Positions 1 to 46,990 of a DNA stretch of 58,371 bases are shown here, in pieces; position 1 is the stretch's first letter; every line of letters begins with the position of its first letter. The notes beneath the pieces were generated by a model, which did no database searches, had not been told where the DNA came from, and saw only the letters and a list, made by a program, of their open reading frames with translations. The stretch lies in sequence record OZ035775.1; one strand, given 5' to 3'. A program made the translations under genes and the position numbers. This DNA comes from Sashavirus BDX09P1.

Positions 1-29
1 CTAATTTAAAATTTATGGGAGACAAATTT

Positions 30-665
30 ATGAAAATTTCAGACCGGGCTAAAAGAGCTGCTCTGGAGTTAACAACCGATCAACTCCGCTTTGCTAACCT
101 GTGGTTAGATCGTGTCAATAACGGCTTCAGCAATGCTCAGTGCGTCTTACACGCTTATCCTGGGCATAAAGACCCTGACGCAGCTAAAGTCACCGCACAT
201 CGCCTCCTGTCGAACAGGAAGGTGTTGAACTATCTGGACGCGATGGGAAGTCATGCGCTTGAATCTGTCGGGGAATCGTTAACGAGTCGTGTCGAGTGGT
301 GGAAACGAGCGGCAAGCACGGCTGAAGAATTACTGGAACCGTATTGTCAGCGTGTCATCGTCCCTGGTGAAGACGATACAGAAGCGAAACACCTGTGGGT
401 GAACAGTACCGACGATATCCCCAGCCATCTGCAACAGTACGTAGTTTGCTACAAACGTTACATGCTGGGCGGATACATTCTGGTGACGCGTGAACTGTTC
501 GACCCGAAAACTCGTGCAAAAGCGTCTGAACAACTGGATAAAATCACCGGGAACAGTATCGACCGTGTGGAACTGTCTGGTGTGGTTGGTAACGTGGTTC
601 AGAGTGTTCCTGAAGGTGCAACTATCGACGACATCGCGCAACTGTATCAGAAGGCGTTGAAATAG
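30..665 (+). CDS. terminase small subunit-like DNA-binding protein
   Basis: N-terminal region (LTTDQLRFANLWL...NAQCVLHAYPG...AAKVTAHRLLSNRKVLNYLDA) fits the helix-turn-helix pattern of phage TerS proteins; GGGAGA RBS before ATG at 30; terminator follows. Confidence 0.5.
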   Translation: MKISDRAKRAALELTTDQLRFANLWLDRVNNGFSNAQCVLHAYPGHKDPDAAKVTAHRLLSNRKVLNYLDAMGSHALESVGESLTSRVEWWKRAASTAEELLEPYCQRVIVPGEDDTEAKHLWVNSTDDIPSHLQQYVVCYKRYMLGGYILVTRELFDPKTRAKASEQLDKITGNSIDRVELSGVVGNVVQSVPEGATIDDIAQLYQKALK

Positions 666-1417: not shown

Positions 1418-1460
1418 AATTTACAATTCCTTGTGTAAACCGTCAAGAATTATTTTAAAT
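1418..1460 (-). promoter_or_regulatory. sigma70-like promoter P1 (conserved motif copy)
   Basis: Minus strand reads TTTAAAATAATTC-TTGACG-17 bp-TAAATT; AT-rich UP-like element. Confidence 0.6.
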
Positions 1461-1483
1461 AAAAACCCCGGTTAGTTCCGGGG
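1456..1483 (-). terminator. intrinsic terminator after 1493-1828
   Basis: CCCCGG-ttagtt-CCGGGG hairpin followed on minus strand by a T-run; overlaps UP element of P1. Confidence 0.55.
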
Positions 1484-1492
1484 TAATGTTCA

Positions 1493-1828
1493 TTATTCGC
1501 CCAACGCTTCTTTCAGTAACCGATACGTTTCAGGACATTTATCGGATCCGCGTTCACGTTCATAAGCTGCGCTAATAACATCCCAGTTTTCAATCACGCC
1601 TTTAAACGCCGGACACTTTTCAGCAATCAATGGAAAACTGTTTCTGATTTCCGGTACAGCTTCAACCAGGAACCAGCAACGGCGAAAATCGGAAACGTCA
1701 AGGGGTGCTCTAAACTCCCAGTCGTAACCCATTTCATTACCCGTGTGAATACAGACCATCGTTTTAGAACTTAGTCCGGTTTCACCAGAACATAACCACT
1801 GAATAATACGTTCCTGTTCTGTTTTCAT
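1493..1828 (-). CDS. hypothetical protein
   Basis: Track ORF, 111 aa, sits between terminator and next gene. Confidence 0.45.
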   Translation of the reverse strand: MKTEQERIIQWLCSGETGLSSKTMVCIHTGNEMGYDWEFRAPLDVSDFRRCWFLVEAVPEIRNSFPLIAEKCPAFKGVIENWDVISAAYERERGSDKCPETYRLLKEALGE

Positions 1829-1988
1829 TTCGTATCACCTATCATGAGCAAACAATCTGGTGTGTTAATCCAGAAACGATCACCAACATCCGGGGAAGCA
1901 TCCCAGGGCATCTTTTCAGTTACTTCCAGTTCAAGATCACCACGGGTATTTTCAGCGATAATTTTTACAGGTACACCGTCATAGGTAC

Positions 1989-2903
1989 TCATCGTTTTGC
2001 CTCCCCGCCGAGTGCCACCACAAGTTGTTTAATCAGCGCCTGAAGTTCACCTGTCATTAGTACAAAATCAGCGTCAAATCGTGCCAGAACATCTTCAAGG
2101 TCAATATCGTCATTCTGTCCGATCAGTCCATCACAGAACTTCACACGGTTTAATGTCATGCTGTCAGTTAGCGTAAACGTTACCCGCTGCTGCCAGTCCA
2201 GAGCCAGCTTTGTAACGACTTTCCCGGCTTCAATATGCGTGGCTATTTCGTCACTGGTTAAATCCTGTTTTTTAACGCGTGCAACACCGCCATCAGTCAG
2301 GATTGCTTTCAGTTCAGCAGAATCACCCATTGTGAAACCTGTTGGCGCGTTTCCTGAACGTACCCACTCCGTTGTTGTCAGTTCAACAGGGTTTTCAGTT
2401 GTCAGTGGGACTACAGGCAGACTACCCAGACTTTTACGCAGCAGTGCTAATGCATCTTCAGCCCGTTTAGCACTGGACGCATCAACCACGATTAACCCGT
2501 TAGTGATATCAATCCACAACTGTGTACGACTGTTTTTAACGAATGCTCGTGGTAACAGACTGTGCAATACTTCATCTTTCAGGCTGTCTTTCTCTGTTTT
2601 CTTCAGTTTACGCGCCTGTTCAGCTTCCAGTTTGGCGATTCGCGCGTTCAAATGCTGTTTAATGACCGGACCCGGAATAATCTTTTCCTGTTTCTGGATG
2701 GTCAGCAGATATTGCCCGTTAGCCTGGTGAACCAGCGTCTGATGTTGTTCAGTTGCCGGAACCCAACCAGTACGCACCATATCCTGTGAACCGCACGGAT
2801 TGAATTGAAACGCACACAGGCTGTCTTCCAGTGTTGGCAACTGGGCCATTAATGCCATAGGATTAGTCAGACGATAAATAATTGCGTTTTTAAAGAAGTT
2901 CAT
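1989..2903 (-). CDS. rdgC: recombination-associated protein RdgC homologue
   Basis: 304 aa; N-terminus [12 protein letters not shown] and overall length match my recollection of enterobacterial RdgC (MLWFKNLMVYRL...); from memory, not searched. Confidence 0.75.
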
Positions 2904-3097
2904 AGTTCAATGTCCTGTGGTTTGATAGTAACTTTTCCGTCAAGAACAACAGTGTTTACACCACTTAGTTTTTGTTCTTCGTATAAATCAAGTTCAACAT
3001 TAATTCCGACGATTGAGGCTTCGTGTATCGCACAGTTTAACTGTTTAATGAGGTCTGAAATTCTACGCTGATAATCTTGTGCTTCTGATAGTTTCAT
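2900..3097 (-). CDS. hypothetical protein
   Basis: Track ORF, 4-bp start/stop overlap with neighbours (operon packing). Confidence 0.4.
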
Positions 3098-3291
3098 ACA
3101 CCACCTTCATTTTTAACATATTCAGCAACTAAATCTTTGACTTCTACAATTTTAACATCACCATTATGATCAACCTCAATATGACAGTGACCATAACGCG
3201 CCGCTGTTAACCTGGCGTCGTTCAGTATTTTTAAATCTTTCAATACTTGTTCAATTGCTTGTTGTTTAATCACAGATTCGTGTACAGTCAT
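3094..3291 (-). CDS. hypothetical protein
   Basis: Track ORF in tightly packed minus operon. Confidence 0.4.
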   Translation of the reverse strand: MTVHESVIKQQAIEQVLKDLKILNDARLTAARYGHCHIEVDHNGDVKIVEVKDLVAEYVKNEGGV

Positions 3292-3521
3292 TTCCGTCTC
3301 CTTCTTTTCTTCGCCTCGCGTCGGGCTTTTGCAACACCTGTTTTACGATGTGGTTGTTTACGATCAGTAATAATTCCTTGTGGTGGAACACCCCATAAAG
3401 TATTGTTCAGACCATAATCATCTACCGAATAATACAAACCGTTAGCGGTGATAATTACATTTGGGTCGTACCCAGTAATTTTCCGAAAACAGTTGATAAT
3501 TGTTGTTTTTGTACTAATCAT
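3288..3521 (-). CDS. hypothetical protein with poly-basic C-terminus
   Basis: Track ORF; C-terminal KARREAKKRRRRK. Confidence 0.4.
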   Translation of the reverse strand: MISTKTTIINCFRKITGYDPNVIITANGLYYSVDDYGLNNTLWGVPPQGIITDRKQPHRKTGVAKARREAKKRRRRK

Positions 3522-3783
3522 ACGTTCACCACTTTTAAATCAGGTGTCAGGCTACGATGGTCATGATGACCGTTCATAGTAAATGAGAAAGTGTAATCGC
3601 ATTGCTCACCGTCGAACGTGAAGGGGATTTGAAACCCTGTATCGTCAGTGATGCGAACTTTAACCGGGTATTCAGCTTGCGGATCGACTGCTACAACAGT
3701 GCCGAACGGTTGAGATTTGCGACGTGCGAGAATTTCTAACAGTCGTGGACTGGTGATTTCCACGTGTTGACCAGTTTTAAACA
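3518..3783 (-). CDS. hypothetical protein
   Basis: Start moved to ATG (MFKTGQ...) with GGAG RBS, downstream of P2. Confidence 0.4.
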
Positions 3784-3816
3784 TGGTGATAACTCCAGTT
3801 GTTTTACACAAACTGA

Positions 3817-3858
3817 AGTCTATCTGATAATGTGTAAACCGTCAAGAATTATTTTAAA
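3817..3858 (-). promoter_or_regulatory. sigma70-like promoter P2 (conserved motif copy)
   Basis: Minus strand TTTAAAATAATTC-TTGACG-17-TAGACT. Confidence 0.6.
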
Positions 3859-4087: not shown

Positions 4088-4486
4088 TTACGATAATTTA
4101 ACAGTTAATCCGGCGTTGGTCAGGACGTTACACACGTCGCGAACACCAGCATTATATCCGTCTATAAGTGTTGCAGGTGAGTTAATACAGATACCAACAT
4201 GTTTCGGTAATTCAATTACCAACTGTTCCCGGCTGGCTTTCCACATGTCCCACGCGCGATTCAAACGATCGCCTTCTTCCACGGTGTACTCGTCATCTTT
4301 CCTTAATTTTTCTAAGACGTTTTTTGGTGTTCCGTATTTGTCTGAATAACACGCTTCAAACTGTTCACGACTCTTATCCACTTTTTCAACCCTCCAGCCG
4401 TATTTAGCATGACTCATAGCGGTCCGTTCATCATTCGTGGTGAACATTACGCGTCCGGATTTATGACAAATATTCCAAGTCGTCAT
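4088..4486 (-). CDS. hypothetical protein
   Basis: Track ORF, 132 aa. Confidence 0.45.
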   Translation of the reverse strand: MTTWNICHKSGRVMFTTNDERTAMSHAKYGWRVEKVDKSREQFEACYSDKYGTPKNVLEKLRKDDEYTVEEGDRLNRAWDMWKASREQLVIELPKHVGICINSPATLIDGYNAGVRDVCNVLTNAGLTVKLS

Positions 4487-5225: not shown

Positions 5226-5611
5226 TAACCCCTTTTAATCTTCCCCAATGCTTGTTGCACAATCTGCCAGGACGATAACATGAATAATTGCGCGTATTGC
5301 CCCGTGGTCTGGTGATGAAATACTCACATGATTTTCAACCCACCCTTCATCTTTGAACCACGGTAATTGTGAACATTTCATACTCATGATCCTCTTGTTT
5401 TTTGTTTAGTGACAAGATATCTCTTCAACCCGTCGCAACTAATTTCACAATCCCCGCAGGAACCACCATCCAACCAGATGATGCATAGTGTGTGATTTCG
5501 TGGGGTGAGTTACGCTTTACACTCACCGTAGCGCCTGACAATCAGCGGTATTTTCGGCCGGACAATTCCGGGTTACTACATACTTGGTCAGGTATCTTGT
5601 CTATGACAACA

Positions 5612-5653
5612 ACTATACAGATACATAAGCAATCTGTCAAGAATTATTTTAAA
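5612..5653 (-). promoter_or_regulatory. sigma70-like promoter P3 (conserved motif copy)
   Basis: Minus strand TTTAAAATAATTC-TTGACA-17-TATAGT; lies inside the track's 5' extension of the terminase ORF. Confidence 0.65.
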
Positions 5654-5716
5654 CATCTGTCACAACCAATCACCCGTGGTAAACTGTACAGAACAGTTAC
5701 AAACGGGCCGATAACC

Positions 5717-7480
5717 ATGAATAAGTTTACTGGAAATATTCATAATTACCCGCGCTGGCGTGATGCCTACGCAAATGACGAACGTATCTGGCGAAAAGGT
5801 CAGCCACGACCGGATTACAAACAGTGTTACATTGACCGTATTAACCTGTTAAACCGTATGCGCACGGATCGGGCAATTGTCCCGGTACTGAAAAAATATT
5901 ACGAAACAAACCCGGTAGCATTCATTCTCGACTGGGCGTTTACTTATGATCCGCGTAACGTCGGTACTGAATACCCACCAAATATGCCTTTCTGCCTTTT
6001 CGAACGTCAGATCGACATGGTTCAGTTTGTTTATGAAGCGCTTGAAGACAAAGAAAAAGGGCTTTGGGAAAAATCGCGAGATTATGGTGCGACCTGGGTA
6101 GCCTGTGGTTTGTCCGTGTGGGCGTGGCTGTATCGTCCTGGTTCGTCAGTTGGCTGGGGATCACGTAAAGAGCAGCTTGTTGATAAATTGGGCGACCCGG
6201 ATAGTATTTTTGAAAAGATTCGCCAGATTATCCGCGCATTACCGCCGGAATTACGTCCTGTTGGCCTGCGTGAAAAAGACCATCTGGTTTACATGAAATG
6301 CATCAACCCAGAAAACGGTGCAACAATTACTGGTGAAGCTGGCAATAACATCGGTCGTGGTGGTCGTAAATCTGTCTATTTTCTCGACGAGGCAGCACAC
6401 GTAGATCGTCCTGAACTGATCGAAGCGTCGTTGTCAGCTAACACCAACGTTCGTATCGACATCAGTTCAGTTAACGGTGTTGGTAACGTTTTTTATCGTA
6501 ATCGTAAAGCTGGTCTGGAATGGGAACCGGGTAAGAAATTACCTCGTGGTAAATTGCGTGTCATGGTTCTGGACTGGCGTGATCACCCGGCTAAAGACGA
6601 CGAATGGTATAAACGAGAAAAACAATCGTTTGCTGAAAAAGGTTTACAGCATATTTTCGCACAGGAAGTTGACCGCGATTATGCCGCTGCTGTTCAGGGC
6701 GTGTTGATTAAAGCTGAATGGGTACGCGCTGCTTTTGACGCTTTCCGTGACACAGAATGGCGCAAAGCTAACGGACTACTTACACCAACAGGTCAACGTA
6801 TCGCCGGACAGGATGCCGCAGACGGTGGTGAAGACGCAAGCGCACTGGTAATTGCTCACGGTGTATTCCTGACACATTTGCAGCTTGACCACAGAGGCGC
6901 TGAACTGGCTGCACCAGGGATGTTGACGATGGCTAATATGCTGGGTGTTGATGAATACTGGTACGAAGTTAACGGTGTTGGTACAGGTGTTAAAGTAGCG
7001 GCAAATGACCGGAAAGATACTCTACGCTTCCGTGTGCGCCCGTGGTTACCGAATGGAAAAGTTGTGGATCCGGGCGGTGATATTATCGGTGGTACGAAAC
7101 CTGGTGACAAAGACCGTAAATCAAACAAAGATTATTTCTCAAATTATAAAGCACAGGCATCGTGGGCGTTACGCCTGCGTTGTCAGCGAATTTATAAATG
7201 GTATGTGGAAGGTCAACCACAGGATCCAGACGAAATCATTCTGATTGATCCATCACTGGAAAATGCACAACGGTTAGAAGCTGAGTTAAGCCAGCCAACG
7301 TATACAAGTAACGGTGCCGGGAAGATTGTGATCGACAAGAAACCAAACGGAAGTAAGTCACCAAACTTTTTCGATGCTGCGGTTATTGCACTATCACCAA
7401 AACGTACCGAATTCGTTGAAGAACCGTTTACTGGTGGTGTGAATCCTGTTGGTACGCCTGATTACGGTGACATTTTTTAA
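5717..7480 (+). CDS. terminase large subunit
   Basis: Walker A-like KSRDYGATW, Walker B-like VYFLDEAAHV, C-terminal nuclease-sized domain; start set at ATG 5717 because the upstream in-frame part is occupied by promoter P3. Confidence 0.85.
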   Translation: MNKFTGNIHNYPRWRDAYANDERIWRKGQPRPDYKQCYIDRINLLNRMRTDRAIVPVLKKYYETNPVAFILDWAFTYDPRNVGTEYPPNMPFCLFERQIDMVQFVYEALEDKEKGLWEKSRDYGATWVACGLSVWAWLYRPGSSVGWGSRKEQLVDKLGDPDSIFEKIRQIIRALPPELRPVGLREKDHLVYMKCINPENGATITGEAGNNIGRGGRKSVYFLDEAAHVDRPELIEASLSANTNVRIDISSVNGVGNVFYRNRKAGLEWEPGKKLPRGKLRVMVLDWRDHPAKDDEWYKREKQSFAEKGLQHIFAQEVDRDYAAAVQGVLIKAEWVRAAFDAFRDTEWRKANGLLTPTGQRIAGQDAADGGEDASALVIAHGVFLTHLQLDHRGAELAAPGMLTMANMLGVDEYWYEVNGVGTGVKVAANDRKDTLRFRVRPWLPNGKVVDPGGDIIGGTKPGDKDRKSNKDYFSNYKAQASWALRLRCQRIYKWYVEGQPQDPDEIILIDPSLENAQRLEAELSQPTYTSNGAGKIVIDKKPNGSKSPNFFDAAVIALSPKRTEFVEEPFTGGVNPVGTPDYGDIF

Positions 7481-42151: not shown

Positions 42152-44008
42152 TTACCGAAGTGGTGCAACGAGTTTTTCAGCTTCTTTGATGTAAAAATCA
42201 TAATTGAGTGTTGCCCGGTTAAAACGTTTCATGTCGTTGCACTCAGTGGTCAACCAACCTTTACACACTGACATACGGCGTTCAGGCGCATCAGGGTTCA
42301 GTTTCAGTGATTTTGCCAGCGGTGGCATGACTTTTGTTAATGGTGCACCATCTGTGCTGACATAATAACGGGTAATGTTCTGAACCTGTTTGTCACCCCA
42401 TAACAACTTGCTGTTACGCGGCACTTTCGTCACCAACATAAAATCGTGAATATCGTCGTGTGATGTTATAAAATCACGAATATCTTTATTATGTACCAGT
42501 GCTGCTTCAGCCGCTTTTGCGACAACCTGCATACTGTGGTTTTGATGCCAACCAAGGTCAACGCTGTGACAATAAGCGCCTTTACGTTTAACTTTCTTAC
42601 CACCTTCGTAAACAGCGATGTAGTTGTTTACGTCGCGAATAAACATCACGTCATAAATCGCTTCTTCAAGCTGGAGTCTGGTTAATTTTTCCCACGCGTG
42701 ACGAACCTGTTCTACTTGTCCGGTAAACACTCGTGGTACGTAAACCGTAAGACCATCTGTGTTAGCCTGGATCATGGACAAACCAGGGATTTTCAGAAGT
42801 TCTTCAGCCAACATGCACAAAAGTAACTGTCCATTAATCGTAATAGCCATTGTATAAGCAGGATCGTAGAATGGACTGTATACGTTATTACTGTCACCAT
42901 ACACACCGTTTAACGCCAGTTTTAACATTGCATTTTCTGGTGTACCTTTCGGGTAACTGGAACGCATGTCGTAAACATTTTTATAAATGGTGCAAAATTG
43001 TTTTCCCAGATGTGCCGGATAAAGTTCATTACTGATCGCAAGGTTCGGGTAAAAACTGGCAACGTCCAGATCGATGATCACATAATTTTCACTGGACCTG
43101 ATAGTTTGAGACTCAATAGACCCGTGGATACCACCCGTACCAAAATCAAACGAGAACCCGTTAATGTCTGCACTTAAATCTGTAAATACACCTTTTGTTT
43201 CAGTGATGACCTGTTGACGTAACCAGTTAAGAACACGATTAAATTCAGGCTGTTCAAAACGGACATAAGGGAAAATCACGCTGTTTAATGCGATTGATAG
43301 TCTGTGCGTCTGTCGTGGTTTTCTACTACCCGGTTCGAAACATTGAATACCTGATTTTTCAAGTTCCATGATGAAATAGTCTTTACCGATTTTCGTGTCG
43401 TTATGGTTCATGAAATTACGACCGTATTTAGCAGAAAGTTCACGACGAAAATCTATCAGCTTTTTACTGTGTTTATAAAACATCAAAGTCGCTTTCAAAT
43501 CGTGCATCAGATATTGACGAAGCGTATCAATTTGAGAATCGGTTAAATAAGTCCCTGGTGTAAACGGAAGGTCTTCAATGTTTTCCATTCTCATATTGAA
43601 TTCAAGTGTTTTCAGACTTGTTCGTTTTGCCTGATTGTCGAAATGATGAATTTTGTACAAATCAAGCTGGGGAACTATCCAGTCTTTTTCCCACACCATA
43701 TGAGCAAAACGATTTTCATCACCGGCGTTAATTATCGAATCGCCTTTTTTGTAAATGTCTGCGTTGGTGATATACATGATGTTGTTCAAAATAGAATGCT
43801 GAACAGGATAGTCGTAACCCAGATTGTTATAACCAACTTCTTCAGCACGATGTTCACGCAAATATTCCGTGAAGAAGTAAAAAGCCTGACGATCATCGCG
43901 ACGATTTGAAATCTCAAAAATATAAGGCGTTTCAGTTAACGCGTGAATAGCACCGAACAGGAAAACATTAGGATAGTTTTCAATATCGTGAACGTAAGTA
44001 TCTGACAT
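42152..44008 (-). CDS. DNA polymerase, compact exonuclease-less type
   Basis: Motif-like strings DLDVASFYPNL, KLALNGVYGDSNN, QANTDGLTV in polymerase A/B/C order; family A versus B not resolved. Confidence 0.6.
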   Translation of the reverse strand: MSDTYVHDIENYPNVFLFGAIHALTETPYIFEISNRRDDRQAFYFFTEYLREHRAEEVGYNNLGYDYPVQHSILNNIMYITNADIYKKGDSIINAGDENRFAHMVWEKDWIVPQLDLYKIHHFDNQAKRTSLKTLEFNMRMENIEDLPFTPGTYLTDSQIDTLRQYLMHDLKATLMFYKHSKKLIDFRRELSAKYGRNFMNHNDTKIGKDYFIMELEKSGIQCFEPGSRKPRQTHRLSIALNSVIFPYVRFEQPEFNRVLNWLRQQVITETKGVFTDLSADINGFSFDFGTGGIHGSIESQTIRSSENYVIIDLDVASFYPNLAISNELYPAHLGKQFCTIYKNVYDMRSSYPKGTPENAMLKLALNGVYGDSNNVYSPFYDPAYTMAITINGQLLLCMLAEELLKIPGLSMIQANTDGLTVYVPRVFTGQVEQVRHAWEKLTRLQLEEAIYDVMFIRDVNNYIAVYEGGKKVKRKGAYCHSVDLGWHQNHSMQVVAKAAEAALVHNKDIRDFITSHDDIHDFMLVTKVPRNSKLLWGDKQVQNITRYYVSTDGAPLTKVMPPLAKSLKLNPDAPERRMSVCKGWLTTECNDMKRFNRATLNYDFYIKEAEKLVAPLR

Positions 44009-44088
44009 AATAAAACCCTGATAAGTAAATGGGGCACCATGGCCCCATGTCTGTTTAAAGCGGTATGTCGTCCCAGTTCCAGTAACTA

Positions 44089-44898
44089 TCAGTAACCGTT
44101 ACCGTTGAGAAAATTCGGGGCCGGGGTGGTCATTACCATATAACCGTTAGCGATCAGTTGTTCATCGTTCCAACCTTGCGCAATAAACTGTTCGTAAGTT
44201 GCACCACCTGCTTTTTCAGTCATCACCTTCACAGGTGCTGCCGCTGGTGTAGGCGCTGCTACAGGTGCTGCCGCTGGTGTAGGCGCTGCTACAGGTGTTA
44301 CGCCGATCGGACGTGCACCTTCAGGCATTGCAGGAGCAGCACCGAACACTGAGGCAGGAGCCGGACCAGAAATGATTTCTTCACCTGCATAAAGCAATTG
44401 CGCCATTTCCATGTTGATATACACACCAGCCTGATTACCTGTACGACCGTTTGCAACAGATGATCCGCTGATACGGTAGTAATAACCTTTTTTCGCCAGA
44501 TTTTTATCAATAACTGGTTGGTACGCTGCGTTATAAACAGGACACGCGTCAATAGCCACGTTGCGTGAGAAACCAATTACCCAGTGACCAGCATAACCAG
44601 TTTTACTCGCATGTTTCGGATCGTCACCGTTAATAATTTTCCATGCGAAAGTGGGTTGTTGTGGTTCGCCGTTCACATAGTGTGAGTTAGCTGCTCGCAT
44701 GATGGCCTGGAACACCGCACCAAGTTCACCTTGTTCTTCCCACCAGTTCGCAGCTGTTTTAGGAAATGCCAGACCAACCCACCAGTTATGTTTTTCAGGT
44801 GCTAACGGTTTATTTTCGTGGTCATGAGTGTTGATATCGAAAAAAGAACCGCCAACCAGACGACCAACCGGAGTTACAAAAGATTCTTTCTGTGCCAT
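44089..44898 (-). CDS. DUF2815-like phage protein (SSB-like partner of DUF2800)
   Basis: N-terminus MAQKESFVTPVGRLVGGSFF...; Pro/Ala repeat linker and conserved C-terminal peptide. Confidence 0.55.
   Translation of the reverse strand: MAQKESFVTPVGRLVGGSFFDINTHDHENKPLAPEKHNWWVGLAFPKTAANWWEEQGELGAVFQAIMRAANSHYVNGEPQQPTFAWKIINGDDPKHASKTGYAGHWVIGFSRNVAIDACPVYNAAYQPVIDKNLAKKGYYYRISGSSVANGRTGNQAGVYINMEMAQLLYAGEEIISGPAPASVFGAAPAMPEGARPIGVTPVAAPTPAAAPVAAPTPAAAPVKVMTEKAGGATYEQFIAQGWNDEQLIANGYMVMTTPAPNFLNGNGY
44231..44298 (-). repeat. 30-bp in-frame tandem repeat (about 2.3 copies)
   Basis: ACAGGTGCTGCCGCTGGTGTAGGCGCTGCT x2 encoding APTPAAAPVA. Confidence 0.8.
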
Positions 44899-44913
44899 GT
44901 TATTAACCTTCTT

Positions 44914-46059
44914 TTAAAGTGGACGTGCGCCAGTCGGCATCGTCACGGGTTTATTGAAAACAGATTCTGCCAGTGTGCTGTGACCTTTACGCGGGTCACT
45001 GTCAGGTACTAAAACTGGCCGACCTTCTGGTTTTGTTGTACACATGTCAACAAGTGCCGGAGGCAGTGATTTTTCCAGTGTTGACAACGGTTTTAATTTA
45101 CGTTCGTACAATGTTTCAGGGTTTACACCAAACATGGATGCAGCACCGATCAGTTTTCCTTCGTCCGTAAGCTGACGTCGGGTTTGCTTTGTTGCAAGTT
45201 TAAAACCCGGTAAAATCTTACCCATGCGAACAAAATGTAACCCCTGAGTATGTAACGCTGTTTTTGCTTCAGAAGAACGCGTATACAGTTCTTCAAGAAG
45301 TGCCAGACGACGCGCCACTTCTTCTGGCGTAAGTGATGGTGGTGCATCAAGAACAGTAGCCAATTCTAAAACCCTCTCATACATTGCCGGACACATACCA
45401 CGCGCCGGACAGTAATGACAATGACTACCAACATTTAACGGTGCGTCTGGTTTATGTGCTTCGTTAAACCCGTGTTTAAATCGTTCAGCCCATTCCATCA
45501 ATGTTACCCGGTTAAACTCCCACCGTCTTACAGGTCCGAGTGGGTGATAAGCCCGTGGCTGAACAATTGTGAACACAACGCGCTTAACTGTGTCGATGCA
45601 ACGTTGGTCCAGTGCATAATAGACCCCCTGTGAGTTATCAACTGCGTCAACTGCAACATGACCGTATTTATAATCCCATACATAAAGCGTATCAGTATTA
45701 AAGTCATACCAGCGATAATCACAGGTTCCGTACTGACCGGGTAACAACCAGTCAATGTGAATGCGAACTTCTGAAAACAGCGGATCAAGTTTCGCACCAA
45801 CTGAAAGAACATCTGCTATAAAGTCATCCGCGTAAATGTGCATGTCTTCAGTAACCTGAACACCGTTAGGAGCAAGACACGGCATTAATGGCGGTTTACC
45901 TTTAATCTTCTGTTCTAATACCCAGTGCCCGGCTGTACCTTCTTCAGCACTGGGTGACGATGGTTCTACATAGTCAATCCGCTGTGACAGTTGAACGCTA
46001 CCCGGACAAGCTAACCAACGTTTTGATCCACTGGCACTAAAGGTAGCGTGACTGGTCAT
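44914..46059 (-). CDS. DUF2800-like PD-(D/E)xK nuclease with C-terminal Cys cluster
   Basis: N-terminus MTSHATFSASGSKRWLACPGS; CHYCPARGMCP cluster (Cas4-like arrangement). Confidence 0.6.
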   Translation of the reverse strand: MTSHATFSASGSKRWLACPGSVQLSQRIDYVEPSSPSAEEGTAGHWVLEQKIKGKPPLMPCLAPNGVQVTEDMHIYADDFIADVLSVGAKLDPLFSEVRIHIDWLLPGQYGTCDYRWYDFNTDTLYVWDYKYGHVAVDAVDNSQGVYYALDQRCIDTVKRVVFTIVQPRAYHPLGPVRRWEFNRVTLMEWAERFKHGFNEAHKPDAPLNVGSHCHYCPARGMCPAMYERVLELATVLDAPPSLTPEEVARRLALLEELYTRSSEAKTALHTQGLHFVRMGKILPGFKLATKQTRRQLTDEGKLIGAASMFGVNPETLYERKLKPLSTLEKSLPPALVDMCTTKPEGRPVLVPDSDPRKGHSTLAESVFNKPVTMPTGARPL

Positions 46060-46820
46060 CAGAATGCCCCACCCATTTGTTTAACAGATTCAGCCTGACC
46101 AACAATGTTTTCAGCATCAGCAGGGGCAGCGTTAATACGTTCAATCAGTTCGATGATAGATTTCAGTTTTACTGGGTCGTCAATCTGCATCACGTTTTGA
46201 GTTTCATACAGTCCCATGATTCGCTGACTTAATGGCGCAGCACGGTCACCCATAATTTGTCCAAACATCTGCATCAGTGCTGACTGAAGAACCTGGGTGT
46301 TATAAACTTTAGCCGGATCCGTGGTTACAGGTTGCTCGACTGGTGCAGCCGGTACTGCTGGTACAACTGGAGCTACCGGAGCGGCAGGAACCGCTGGAGC
46401 AGGATCAACAGGTGCTACATAACCAGGTGCGAGTTCTGCAGGTCCGGTATAACGCCCTGCTTCAACTGCTTCAGCGATAAGTTCACGTTTAACACCGTCA
46501 ACAAACGCTTCATCCAGTTTTTTCTTTTGACGCCACAGACCATCACCTTTGTTCAGGGATTTACTGTCGGTGTGGATACGCGGATCATGACGCAAACCCC
46601 ATTTGTCGAACTCTTCAGTGCTGGTTTCGTTATCGTCAACATCTTCAGTTGGTGCAGATACAACAGGCAGTGATTCAGCAACGACAGTCACAGTTTCTTT
46701 AGTGATACCATCACCAGGAGCAGTCATAAGCGGTGCAGCACCAGTCGCAATCGCTGCTGCCAGATTGTTGATCGCAGTTTCCAGACCCGGAGCAGTTACA
46801 AGTAATTTAACTTCGAACAT
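46059..46820 (-). CDS. hypothetical protein with Pro/Ala/Val-rich linker
   Basis: PAPAVPAAPVAPVVPAVPAAPV low-complexity segment; first gene after P10/P11. Confidence 0.45.
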   Translation of the reverse strand: MFEVKLLVTAPGLETAINNLAAAIATGAAPLMTAPGDGITKETVTVVAESLPVVSAPTEDVDDNETSTEEFDKWGLRHDPRIHTDSKSLNKGDGLWRQKKKLDEAFVDGVKRELIAEAVEAGRYTGPAELAPGYVAPVDPAPAVPAAPVAPVVPAVPAAPVEQPVTTDPAKVYNTQVLQSALMQMFGQIMGDRAAPLSQRIMGLYETQNVMQIDDPVKLKSIIELIERINAAPADAENIVGQAESVKQMGGAF

Positions 46821-46852
46821 TACGTTTTCCTCTTGTTGTTTGGTTGTCGCTA

Positions 46853-46893
46853 ACTTTAAAAGGTGTTGTGTAATCTGTCAAGAATTATTTTAC
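46853..46893 (-). promoter_or_regulatory. sigma70-like promoter P10 (conserved motif copy)
   Basis: Minus strand TGTAAAATAATTC-TTGACA-17-TAAAGT. Confidence 0.6.
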
Positions 46894-46915
46894 ACTCGCC
46901 TTTCGTTGATGCAGA

Positions 46916-46956
46916 TGTTAGAGGAATAAGTTGCAATGCGTCAAGAACTATTTTAA
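46916..46956 (-). promoter_or_regulatory. sigma70-like promoter P11 (tandem second copy)
   Basis: Minus strand TTTAAAATAGTTC-TTGACG-17-CTAACA. Confidence 0.5.
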
Positions 46957-46990
46957 ACTTTTTTCACGATTCGATATTACAGGGTAGAAA

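What the first reader, a model, noticed from the sequence alone, without database searches (positions are those of the whole stretch)
1989..2903. Host-like rdgC carried in the phage early region
A full-length RdgC homologue is encoded among early genes. RdgC modulates RecA-dependent recombination, so a phage copy could tune recombination or replication restart during infection, and its apparent closeness to host sequence suggests recent acquisition.
Basis: partly seen in the sequence, partly recalled or inferred. Interest (0 to 1): 0.4.

Follow-up and report, generated by a model that had tools for sequence, protein, structure and literature searches.

The report
Phage-lineage rdgC gene, already known
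The phage does carry an intact, selected copy of the bacterial RecA-modulating DNA-binding protein RdgC, but it is an old, dispensable gene of this phage group that is already annotated in its relatives, not a recent capture from the host.

Summary
Window 1989..2903 (- strand) is a 304-aa ORF that matches RdgC end to end: Pfam PF04381 E=1.8e-114, E. coli RdgC structure 2OWL E=3e-127. All 10 residues mutated in E. coli RdgC are conserved.

"Recent acquisition from the host" is not supported:
- The protein is 66% identical to E. coli RdgC, and synonymous sites are saturated (pS about 0.76).
- GC3 is 0.44, like the phage, against 0.59 for E. coli rdgC.
- Chromosomal Enterobacteriaceae RdgCs are 85-93% identical to E. 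coli's. The phage copies form their own clade (100% bootstrap) outside them, nearest P1 HrdC.
- The clade spans Escherichia, Salmonella and Klebsiella 9NA/Sasha-like phages in conserved synteny, with dN/dS 0.10-0.15.

"Early gene" is plausible but indirect. rdgC lies in a leftward small-gene block between terS and terL. It sits behind a repeated sigma-70-type promoter motif (14 copies against 0.11 expected) that also heads the replication operons.

The gene is accessory. It is absent from the terS-terL interval of 9NA and Sasha, and the Sasha/Sergei difference has its junction inside the promoter repeat.

The likely function is inferred: a DNA-encircling dimer that restrains host RecA. Phage RdgC is already catalogued (PHROG 724, P1 HrdC, 509 phage records). 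Low novelty.

The parts
1989..2903 (-). rdgC coding sequence (304 aa), a phage-lineage RdgC
   Evidence: ORF; PF04381 full length; NF001462 above cut-off; PHROG 724; 2OWL E=3e-127; 10/10 functionally tested residues conserved; dN/dS 0.10-0.15 against phage orthologues
3817..3858 (-). Promoter-like site nearest upstream of the rdgC gene chain: motif TTTAAAATAATTCTTGAC (3858..3841), -35 TTGACG, 17-nt spacer, -10 TAGACT
   Evidence: Consensus scan; exact copy of a motif present 14 times against 0.11 expected; the first ORF downstream is 3811..3518; conserved at the syntenic place in PJ16, AVIO78A, Sergei and KP13-27. Function is inferred, not shown.
2900..3811 (-). Four small genes upstream of rdgC in the same chain (3518..3811 97 aa; 3288..3521 77 aa; 3094..3291 65 aa; 2900..3097 65 aa), each overlapping the next by ATGA
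   Evidence: ORF coordinates; the ATGA overlap with the rdgC start was read directly, with AGGA 9 nt upstream of the ATG; no Pfam hits and no informative PHROG hits
1493..1992 (-). Two genes downstream of rdgC in the same chain (1825..1992 55 aa; 1493..1828 111 aa, PHROG 1229, unknown function), both joined by ATGA overlaps
1465..1484 (-). Intrinsic-terminator-like hairpin (ACCCCGG-loop-CCGGGGT followed by TTTTTATTT) that ends the rdgC transcription unit
   Evidence: terminators are annotated at the same place in AVIO78A and Sergei
5612..5653 (-). First leftward promoter of the terS-terL block (same motif; TTGACA-17-TATAGT, 11 of 12 matches), divergent from terL; it may read through into the rdgC unit
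1418..1459 (-). Third copy of the promoter motif, just after the terminator, heading the last small genes of the block. It is one of the repeat copies that bound the cassette. Its counterpart in Sergei and Sasha is where those two genomes differ.
42152..46957 (-). Context only: the phage's own leftward replication and recombination operon (253-aa unknown, exonuclease 44914..46059, Gp2.5-like ssDNA-binding/annealing protein 44089..44898, DNA polymerase 42152..44008), headed by two copies of the same promoter motif (46957, 46894)
   Evidence: PHROG hits; promoter motif copies

Best explanation
The gene encodes a functional RdgC of a lineage long resident in phages. By homology with E. coli RdgC it should form a ring-shaped dimer. 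That dimer loads onto DNA through its basic finger domain and clamps non-specifically around double- and single-stranded DNA. This competes with host RecA for DNA, damping RecA strand exchange and RecA-stimulated LexA cleavage. In this phage it is probably made with the other non-structural genes, from sigma-70-type phage promoters of the same class that drive the replication operons. It would keep host RecA/RecFOR off phage replication and recombination intermediates. Recombination would then run through the phage's own RecA-independent exonuclease plus Gp2.5-like annealing protein, and SOS signalling would be limited. It is an accessory fitness gene, carried in a cassette bounded by promoter repeats that can be lost or swapped. 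Shown here: identity, intactness, conserved functional residues, purifying selection, age, synteny, dispensability and promoter-motif sharing. Inferred: dimer formation, DNA binding, RecA antagonism, timing of expression and the benefit to the phage.
For: Family identity and full-length matches. The ten residues shown by mutagenesis to matter in E. coli RdgC are all conserved in the window protein and its clade (residues from PMC2965237): fingertip R97/K98/K100/K101, gate R118/F120, horseshoe Q212/E218/H222/K227. dN/dS is 0.10-0.15 among the window, PJ16, AVIO78A, Sergei and KP13-27 copies. ATGA-coupled gene chain, promoter and terminator. The promoter motif occurs 14 times against 0.11 expected. 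It heads the replication operons and the leftward islands, though two copies are less clear: the weakest (42131+, 3 mismatches) lies at the DNA polymerase gene, and 19383+ was not assigned to a gene class. The phage has its own exonuclease, annealing protein, polymerase, helicase and primase. rdgC is absent from the terS-terL interval of 9NA and Sasha, and P1 hrdC is non-essential by CRISPRi (PMC10695390). P1 hrdC lies in a C1-repressed (lytic early) operon. The biochemistry of RdgC as a RecA inhibitor is summarised in PMC2965237 and PMC11077077.
Against: No experiment on any phage RdgC was found in the searchable literature. Timing of expression is inferred from promoter motifs only. The N-terminal 76 residues are only 45% identical to E. 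coli RdgC, so partner interactions could differ. The AlphaFold model was too poor to confirm the fold independently (pLDDT 52). In BASEL phenotyping the relative Bas82 was not notably robust against the defence systems tested (PMC11990801), so no obvious phenotype is attached to the extra genes.
Confidence: 0.55

Rival explanations
1. One reading: the gene was recently captured from the host chromosome, and that is why it looks host-like.
For: 66% protein identity to E. coli RdgC is high for a phage-host pair. The finger and gate region (E. coli residues 77-120) is 91% identical.
Against: Synonymous sites are saturated against E. coli (pS 0.76, third-position identity 43%, longest exact run 18 nt). 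GC3 is ameliorated to the phage value. No place in 5,426 complete E. coli genomes covers 80% or more of the gene, and chromosomal rdgC matches at about 70%. Enterobacteriaceae RdgCs are 85-93% identical to E. coli's and form a 100%-supported clade that excludes the phage clade. The 120 closest database proteins (80-95%) all sit on contigs of at most about 61 kb, i.e. phage-sized. Synteny is conserved across phages of three host genera. Even in the finger region, DNA identity is only 78%.
Confidence: 0.03
2. The main benefit is counter-defence or SOS control. The phage RdgC would block RecA activation to prevent SOS-dependent induction of competing prophages, or to blunt RecA/DNA-damage-linked immunity. 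The mechanism is the same as in the best explanation, but the selective target differs.
For: E. coli RdgC reduces RecA-dependent LexA cleavage (cited in PMC11077077). The gene lies in variable, promoter-bounded islands of small accessory genes, the typical location of anti-defence genes. In a preprint, overexpressed host rdgC was among the triggers of a retron toxin/antitoxin system, so RdgC-type proteins do touch defence systems. Host RdgC co-purified with the ShosA antitoxin (PMC11961720).
Against: No direct data. Bas82 remained sensitive to the restriction-modification and Old systems tested. The neighbouring genes have no recognisable anti-defence domains.
Confidence: 0.2
3. Replication-fork helper. 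As in E. coli, where RdgC counters toxic RecFOR/RecA loading when restart is compromised, the phage copy would protect stalled phage forks and support restart of phage replication.
For: E. coli genetics link rdgC to priA/priB and RecFOR (summarised). rdgC shares its promoter class with the replication genes.
Against: The phage brings its own polymerase, helicase and primase. rdgC is far from that module and is missing in close relatives that replicate well.
Confidence: 0.15
4. RexA-like role. RdgC and lambda RexA share a fold, so the phage protein could act in exclusion of other phages or as a regulatory DNA-binding switch rather than on RecA.
For: The structural similarity of RexA and RdgC is published (PMC11077077). 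The idea was raised for RdgC homologues of lambdoid phages (PMC12315714).
Against: This protein is a close, full-length RdgC with all RdgC-specific interface and finger residues, not a RexA-like divergent relative. No RexB-like partner is evident among the neighbours. No integrase is annotated in the part of relative Bas82 that was examined. That 9NA-like phages are virulent is my own recollection and was not checked here.
Confidence: 0.04
5. It is an exonuclease, as annotated in several relatives ('RdgC exonuclease', 'exonuclease').
For: The Pfam and PHROG family names and GenBank product names say so.
Against: The label is historical. The papers read here describe E. coli RdgC as a non-specific DNA-binding ring dimer and do not attribute a nuclease activity to it (PMC2965237; PMC11077077). 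That no nuclease activity has been found for RdgC is my own recollection of the literature. No nuclease-type catalytic motif was tested for or seen here.
Confidence: 0.02

Closest known systems
E. coli RdgC (PDB 2OWL; recombination-associated protein, PF04381)
   Same: Same length (304 vs 303 aa) and collinear over the whole protein, with 66% identity. All ten mutationally tested residues are identical, and the finger/gate region is 91% identical.
   Different: Encoded on a phage, in a small-gene operon between the terminase genes, rather than next to mak on the chromosome. It scores below the cut-off of the E. coli-type NCBIfam equivalog NF001460 (471 against a cut-off of 501; E. coli scores 664). 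The N-terminal 76 residues are only 45% identical. Net charge is less acidic (K+R 35, D+E 37, against 39 and 47). Codon composition is phage-like.
Orthologues in 9NA/Sasha-like phages (PJ16 PJ16_006, AVIO78A_005, Sergei gp07, SP069/FSL SP-062 'RdgC exonuclease', Klebsiella phage KP13-27 rdgC, VLCpiS10a, Bas82)
   Same: 81-97% protein identity, the same position and orientation between terS and terL, and the same promoter motif upstream. These genes are already annotated as RdgC.
   Different: Only allelic differences. The small genes flanking rdgC vary between phages.
Phage P1/P7 HrdC (homologue of RdgC)
   Same: A phage-borne full-length RdgC, 58.6% identical by tblastn (58.5% in the multiple alignment), with all ten key residues conserved. 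It is the nearest outgroup in the tree (77.5% bootstrap). It lies in a repressor-controlled lytic operon and is non-essential.
   Different: P1 is a temperate phage-plasmid. There hrdC is paired with the dmt methyltransferase, which is not the case here.
Lambda RexA
   Same: Shares the fold of the RdgC centre and base domains and binds DNA non-specifically (PMC11077077).
   Different: No detectable sequence similarity and a different closed dimer; it works with RexB in exclusion. The window protein is a bona fide RdgC, not a RexA.

Membership tests
RdgC family (PF04381 / NCBIfam PRK00321 group) | Full-length match to the family profile above the curated threshold | tested here: met
   PF04381: 382.5 bits against a cut-off of 25, profile positions 2-298 of 298. 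NF001462 equivalog: 413.5 bits against 330.
RdgC family (PF04381 / NCBIfam PRK00321 group) | Dimer-interface residues needed for function in E. coli (gate R118, F120; horseshoe Q212, E218, H222, K227) | tested here: met
   All are identical in the window protein (R119, F121, Q213, E219, H223, K228) and in 13 further clade members. Residues taken from PMC2965237.
RdgC family (PF04381 / NCBIfam PRK00321 group) | Basic fingertip needed for loading on circular DNA (R97, K98, K100, K101) | tested here: met
   R98, K99, K101 and K102 are present. The finger region is 90% identical to E. coli's.
RdgC family (PF04381 / NCBIfam PRK00321 group) | Toroidal homodimer fold | tested here: inconclusive
   The AlphaFold2 model from a 24-sequence alignment was poor (mean pLDDT 51.7) and was not searched against structures. 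The fold is inferred from 66% identity over the full length of 2OWL.
RdgC family (PF04381 / NCBIfam PRK00321 group) | Non-specific DNA binding and inhibition of RecA strand exchange and LexA cleavage | not testable with these tools
   Needs purified protein (gel-shift assays and RecA assays).
Host-type (E. coli / Enterobacteriaceae) RdgC orthologue, i.e. a recent host copy | Scores above the cut-off of the E. coli-type equivalog NF001460 | tested here: not met
   Window 471 bits against a cut-off of 501. E. coli scores 664, Providencia 494, P1 HrdC 420 and KP13-27 477.
Host-type (E. coli / Enterobacteriaceae) RdgC orthologue, i.e. a recent host copy | Falls inside the chromosomal Enterobacteriaceae clade, with unsaturated synonymous divergence | tested here: not met
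   It lies outside a 100%-supported Enterobacteriaceae clade. It is 65-68% identical to them, against 85-93% identity of those family members to E. coli RdgC. pS is 0.76.
Phage RdgC group (PHROG 724; P1 HrdC-like) | Full-length match to the phage family profile, located on a phage genome | tested here: met
   PHROG 724 E=1.4e-126, profile positions 3-301 of 312. 509 phage records carry a homologue, 408 of them covering at least 80% of the query.
Early gene class of this phage | Transcription early in infection | not testable with these tools
   Only indirect evidence: rdgC shares a sigma-70-type promoter motif with the replication operons. The paper on 9NA-like phage genomics (PMC6819911) is not held.

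The most novel reading that the evidence does not exclude
The 9NA/Sasha-like phage RdgC clade, and perhaps P1 HrdC, is a dedicated viral antagonist of host RecA. Its real job would be to silence SOS and RecA-linked immunity, or conversely it would be what some defence systems sense. It would travel in cassettes bounded by copies of a conserved promoter, and those copies would double as recombination junctions for gain and loss of accessory genes.
Probability: 0.2. Interest if true: 0.45.

Novelty: already known. Interest (0 to 1): 0.14.

Why it matters
It matters only modestly. RdgC homologues are frequent in phages: about 1% of GenBank phage records here, including P1 and ICP1. No experimental study of one turned up in the searched literature. 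This gene therefore belongs to a widespread phage function that is annotated but not understood. An easy test system exists, because the relative Bas82 is in the public BASEL collection. The analysis corrects the appealing but wrong idea of a recent host capture. It also shows that the common 'exonuclease' label on these genes is unsupported.

Tried and rejected
(1) The genome-contig scan with the phage protein was limited by its peptide patterns. It returned only Morganellaceae-type chromosomal RdgCs (57-61%) and one distant hit, so it could not name a donor. I used a second protein search with E. coli RdgC to get Enterobacteriaceae sequences instead.

(2) Structure prediction gave a low-confidence model (pLDDT 51.7), so I ran no fold search.

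(3) I tested whether the 90%-identical finger domain is a recent recombination patch from the host. DNA identity there is only 78% and the longest exact run is 18 nt. The somewhat higher third-position identity (0.57-0.70) sits in a Lys/Glu/Leu-rich stretch with few codon choices. The idea was rejected.

(4) Pfam and PHROG scans of ten neighbouring small genes gave no informative function. The 'radical SAM' PHROG label on a 65-aa protein is not credible.

(5) The key paper on 9NA-like phages (Zeng et al. 2019, PMC6819911) is not held.

(6) Several literature hits concerned only host rdgC: as a CRISPR target, in a ShosA pull-down and as a transcript raised in lambda infection. The AVIO78A paper does not discuss the gene.

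(8) The record 'Salmonella phage S.Kent 1-2-1', which looked like a 65%-identical phage homologue, turned out to be a host chromosomal fragment.

Full report
**1. Observation**

The ORF listing gives an ATG-started ORF at exactly 1989..2903 on the minus strand, 304 aa.
- It matches Pfam RdgC (PF04381) from end to end: E=1.8e-114, 382 bits against a gathering score of 25.
- It passes the NCBIfam RdgC equivalog NF001462 (413 bits, cut-off 330).
- It matches PHROG 724, 'exonuclease recombination-associated' (E=1.4e-126).
- It aligns over its whole length with the crystallised E. coli RdgC, 2OWL (E=3e-127), and with P. aeruginosa RdgC, 2OWY (E=6e-66).

The window is essentially a complete genome of a 9NA/Sasha-like siphovirus. 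The closest records are Escherichia phages PJ16 (96%), AVIO78A (94%), PDP46 and Bas82. In those records the orthologous gene is already annotated as 'recombination-associated protein', 'exonuclease' or 'RdgC exonuclease'.

**2. Is it intact and under selection?**

Briggs et al. 2010 (PMC2965237) defined the residues that matter in E. coli RdgC:
- the basic fingertip, R97/K98/K100/K101, needed to load on circular DNA;
- the gate interface, R118/F120;
- the horseshoe interface, Q212/E218/H222/K227.

All ten are identical in the window protein (numbering +1) and in its phage relatives. Nei-Gojobori dN/dS between the window gene and its orthologues in PJ16, AVIO78A, Sergei and Klebsiella phage KP13-27 is 0.10-0.15, with dS reaching 1.3. 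The protein has therefore been kept functional over a long period inside phages.

An AlphaFold model built from a shallow alignment was poor (pLDDT 52) and was not used. The fold is inferred from 66% identity to 2OWL.

**3. Is it a recent capture from the host? No.**

- Divergence from E. coli K-12-type RdgC (locus): protein identity is 66% (200/302), codon-aligned DNA identity 63% and third-position identity 43%. The proportion of synonymous differences is 0.76, which is saturation.
- Across 5,426 complete E. coli genomes, chromosomal rdgC matches at about 70% over part of the gene. No place covers 80% or more of it.
- Composition: the phage gene has GC3 0.436, like the phage (genome GC 0.435). 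E. coli rdgC has 0.586.
- Chromosomal RdgC is very conserved in Enterobacteriaceae. Identity to E. coli is 93% for Salmonella, 91% for Citrobacter and Klebsiella, and 85-86% for Cronobacter.
- The phage protein is 65-68% identical to all of these and 58-60% to Morganellaceae RdgCs. E. coli RdgC is itself 59-65% identical to the Morganellaceae RdgCs.
- In a bootstrapped neighbour-joining tree the phage clade (100%) lies outside the Enterobacteriaceae clade (100%). It tends to join P1 HrdC (77.5%). The group of phage clade, P1 and Enterobacteriaceae has 88.5% support.
- The same picture comes from NCBIfam. On the E. coli-type equivalog NF001460 (cut-off 501), E. coli scores 664, the window protein 471, Providencia 494 and P1 HrdC 420.
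- The 120 closest proteins in a 5.8-billion-protein database (80-95% identity) all sit on contigs of at most about 61 kb, i.e. phage-sized. Some are labelled Salmonella or Klebsiella phage. One that I examined has the same terL/terS synteny.

The finger/gate region is 91% identical to E. coli's, which probably gave the 'host-like' impression. Its DNA identity is only 78%, and the longest exact run shared by the two genes is 18 nt. That is constraint, not a recent patch.

One limitation remains. Several Enterobacterales families were not sampled, so the donor lineage stays open.

**4. Genomic setting and the 'early gene' claim**

rdgC is not in a classical early region. It lies between the small (15..665, +) and large (about 5717..7480, +) terminase genes, on the opposite strand, in a block of about 16 small genes.

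The annotated relative Bas82 shows that this whole phage group has its virion genes interrupted by such leftward islands of small genes.

rdgC is the fifth gene of a chain of seven linked by ATGA stop/start overlaps (3811 down to 1493). An AGGA lies 9 nt before its ATG. The chain ends at a good intrinsic-terminator-like hairpin (1484..1465), which is also annotated in AVIO78A and Sergei.

Upstream I found a repeated motif, TTTAAAATAATTCTTGAC. It continues as rGATTACA and is followed by a TAnnnT -10 element.
- There are 14 copies in the window with at most 3 mismatches, against 0.11 expected.
- Three copies lie in this block, at 5653, 3858 and 1459, all leftward. The 3858 copy heads the rdgC chain. 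The 5653 copy is a near-consensus sigma-70 promoter (TTGACA-17-TATAGT).
- Most of the other copies head the other leftward islands and the replication operons: 46957 and 46894 before the exonuclease / Gp2.5-like annealing protein / DNA polymerase operon, and 51730 and 54175 rightward. Two are less clear: the weakest copy (42131+, 3 mismatches) lies at the DNA polymerase gene, and the 19383+ copy was not assigned to a gene class. None was seen to head the virion-gene runs.
- The motif is conserved at syntenic places in PJ16, AVIO78A, Sergei, KP13-27, 9NA, Sasha and Bas82.

rdgC therefore probably belongs to the same host-RNA-polymerase-read, non-late class as the replication genes. This makes 'early' plausible, but it is an inference. 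No transcript data were available, and the main paper on these phages is not held.

**5. Dispensability and mobility**

- 9NA has different genes between terS and terL, and tblastn finds no RdgC there.
- Sasha has only three small genes in that interval, whereas its close relative Sergei has sixteen, including rdgC.
- Sasha 1-1741 equals Sergei 1-1741 (99.9%), and Sasha 1717-2385 equals Sergei 6249-6917 (93%). The two genomes thus differ by 4,532 bp (13 genes), and the junction lies inside a 25-bp copy of the promoter motif.
- The promoter repeats therefore bound exchangeable cassettes, and rdgC is an accessory gene.
- The P1 homologue hrdC sits in a C1-repressor-controlled operon and was scored non-essential by CRISPRi (PMC10695390).

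**6. Mechanism**

Established knowledge of E. coli RdgC comes from Briggs 2010 (PMC2965237) and the summary in PMC11077077. RdgC is a toroidal dimer that binds DNA non-specifically. [quoted passage not shown] It also interacts genetically with priA/priB and RecFOR.

The interface and finger residues are fully conserved here. The most likely activity is therefore the same: a DNA clamp that denies DNA to RecA.

The phage encodes its own exonuclease and Gp2.5-like annealing protein as well as a polymerase, helicase and primase. I infer that the benefit is to keep host RecA/RecFOR off phage intermediates and to limit SOS signalling. The rivals are ranked in the report sections: counter-defence or SOS control as the primary target, fork protection, a RexA-like role (suggested for lambdoid RdgC homologues in PMC12315714), and nuclease activity as annotated.

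No experimental study of a phage RdgC turned up.

**7. Novelty**

Phage-borne RdgC is well catalogued.
- 509 of 50,697 phage records carry a homologue. These include P1/P7 HrdC, Vibrio phage ICP1, Pseudomonas F116-like phages and many vibriophages.
- There is a dedicated PHROG family.
- The direct orthologues of this gene are annotated in GenBank.

The finding is real but ordinary. The one interpretive element that would have made it interesting, recent host capture, is contradicted by the evidence.

Noticed in passing
window, motif start positions 1459(-), 3858(-), 5653(-), 11158(-), 13380(-), 14522(-), 19098(-), 19383(+), 29212(-), 42131(+, weak), 46894(-), 46957(-), 51730(+), 54175(+): A conserved promoter-like motif, TTTAAAATAATTCTTGAC+rGATTACA, followed by a TAnnnT -10 element. 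There are 14 copies against 0.11 expected. It heads the leftward small-gene islands and the replication operons, and was not seen before the virion-gene runs. The conservation beyond the -35 element suggests a regulator-binding site or an UP element. It is conserved in 9NA, Sasha, Sergei, PJ16, AVIO78A, KP13-27 and Bas82.
   Followed up: partly
L018 (Sasha) 1717-1741 vs L019 (Sergei) 1717-1741 and 6249-6273: Sasha and Sergei differ by a 4,532-bp, 13-gene segment that includes rdgC. The junction lies inside a 25-bp copy of the promoter motif, so the promoter repeats appear to act as recombination junctions for cassette loss or exchange. The right flank is only 93% identical against 99.9% on the left, which suggests a mosaic boundary rather than a simple deletion.
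   Followed up: yes
window 5492..7480 (+): The mechanical ORF for the large terminase (662 aa, GTG at 5492) is over-extended. Relatives have a 587-588-aa TerL (1764 nt), which places the real start near 5717 and leaves about 330 bp of divergent promoter region (5388-5716).
   Followed up: partly
L016 (OR851377.1, 'Salmonella phage S.Kent 1-2-1', 1,994 bp): This 'phage' record carries a chromosomal-type Salmonella rdgC (93% identical to E. coli RdgC, the same N-terminus as Salmonella enterica RdgC). It is almost certainly host DNA contamination; the record is flagged UNVERIFIED_ORG.
   Followed up: partly
L002 (DXHP01000099.1, 'Candidatus Ignatzschineria merdigallinarum' MAG contig): Its RdgC is 93% identical to that of Proteus cibi and groups with Morganellaceae in the tree. 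The 9.6-kb contig is probably a misbinned Proteus-like contig.
   Followed up: no
E. coli plasmids in the E. coli genome collection (e.g. NZ_CP196173.1, NZ_CP077509.1): 546 matching places lie on E. coli plasmids, and the two listed (92 and 102 kb) are annotated rdgC. These are most likely P1-like phage-plasmids carrying hrdC, so many E. coli strains hold two RdgC paralogues.
   Followed up: no
window 2900..3097 (-) and 4088..4486 (-): The 65-aa gene just upstream of rdgC hits a PHROG labelled 'radical SAM domain-containing protein' (E=1e-8), which cannot be right for a 65-aa protein. A 129-aa gene at the corresponding place in a metagenomic relative, probably the counterpart of the window's 132-aa gene, carries Pfam PF26207 (Phage_phiTE_015). 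The window copy itself had no Pfam hit at E<=0.01.
   Followed up: no
L012 (Bas82) whole genome; window equivalents: Virion assembly genes (terL, portal, head morphogenesis, capsid, tail) are repeatedly interrupted by leftward islands of small unknown genes. A ParB-like gene and an RDF-like gene are annotated, but no integrase appears in the 50 kb of the record examined.
   Followed up: no
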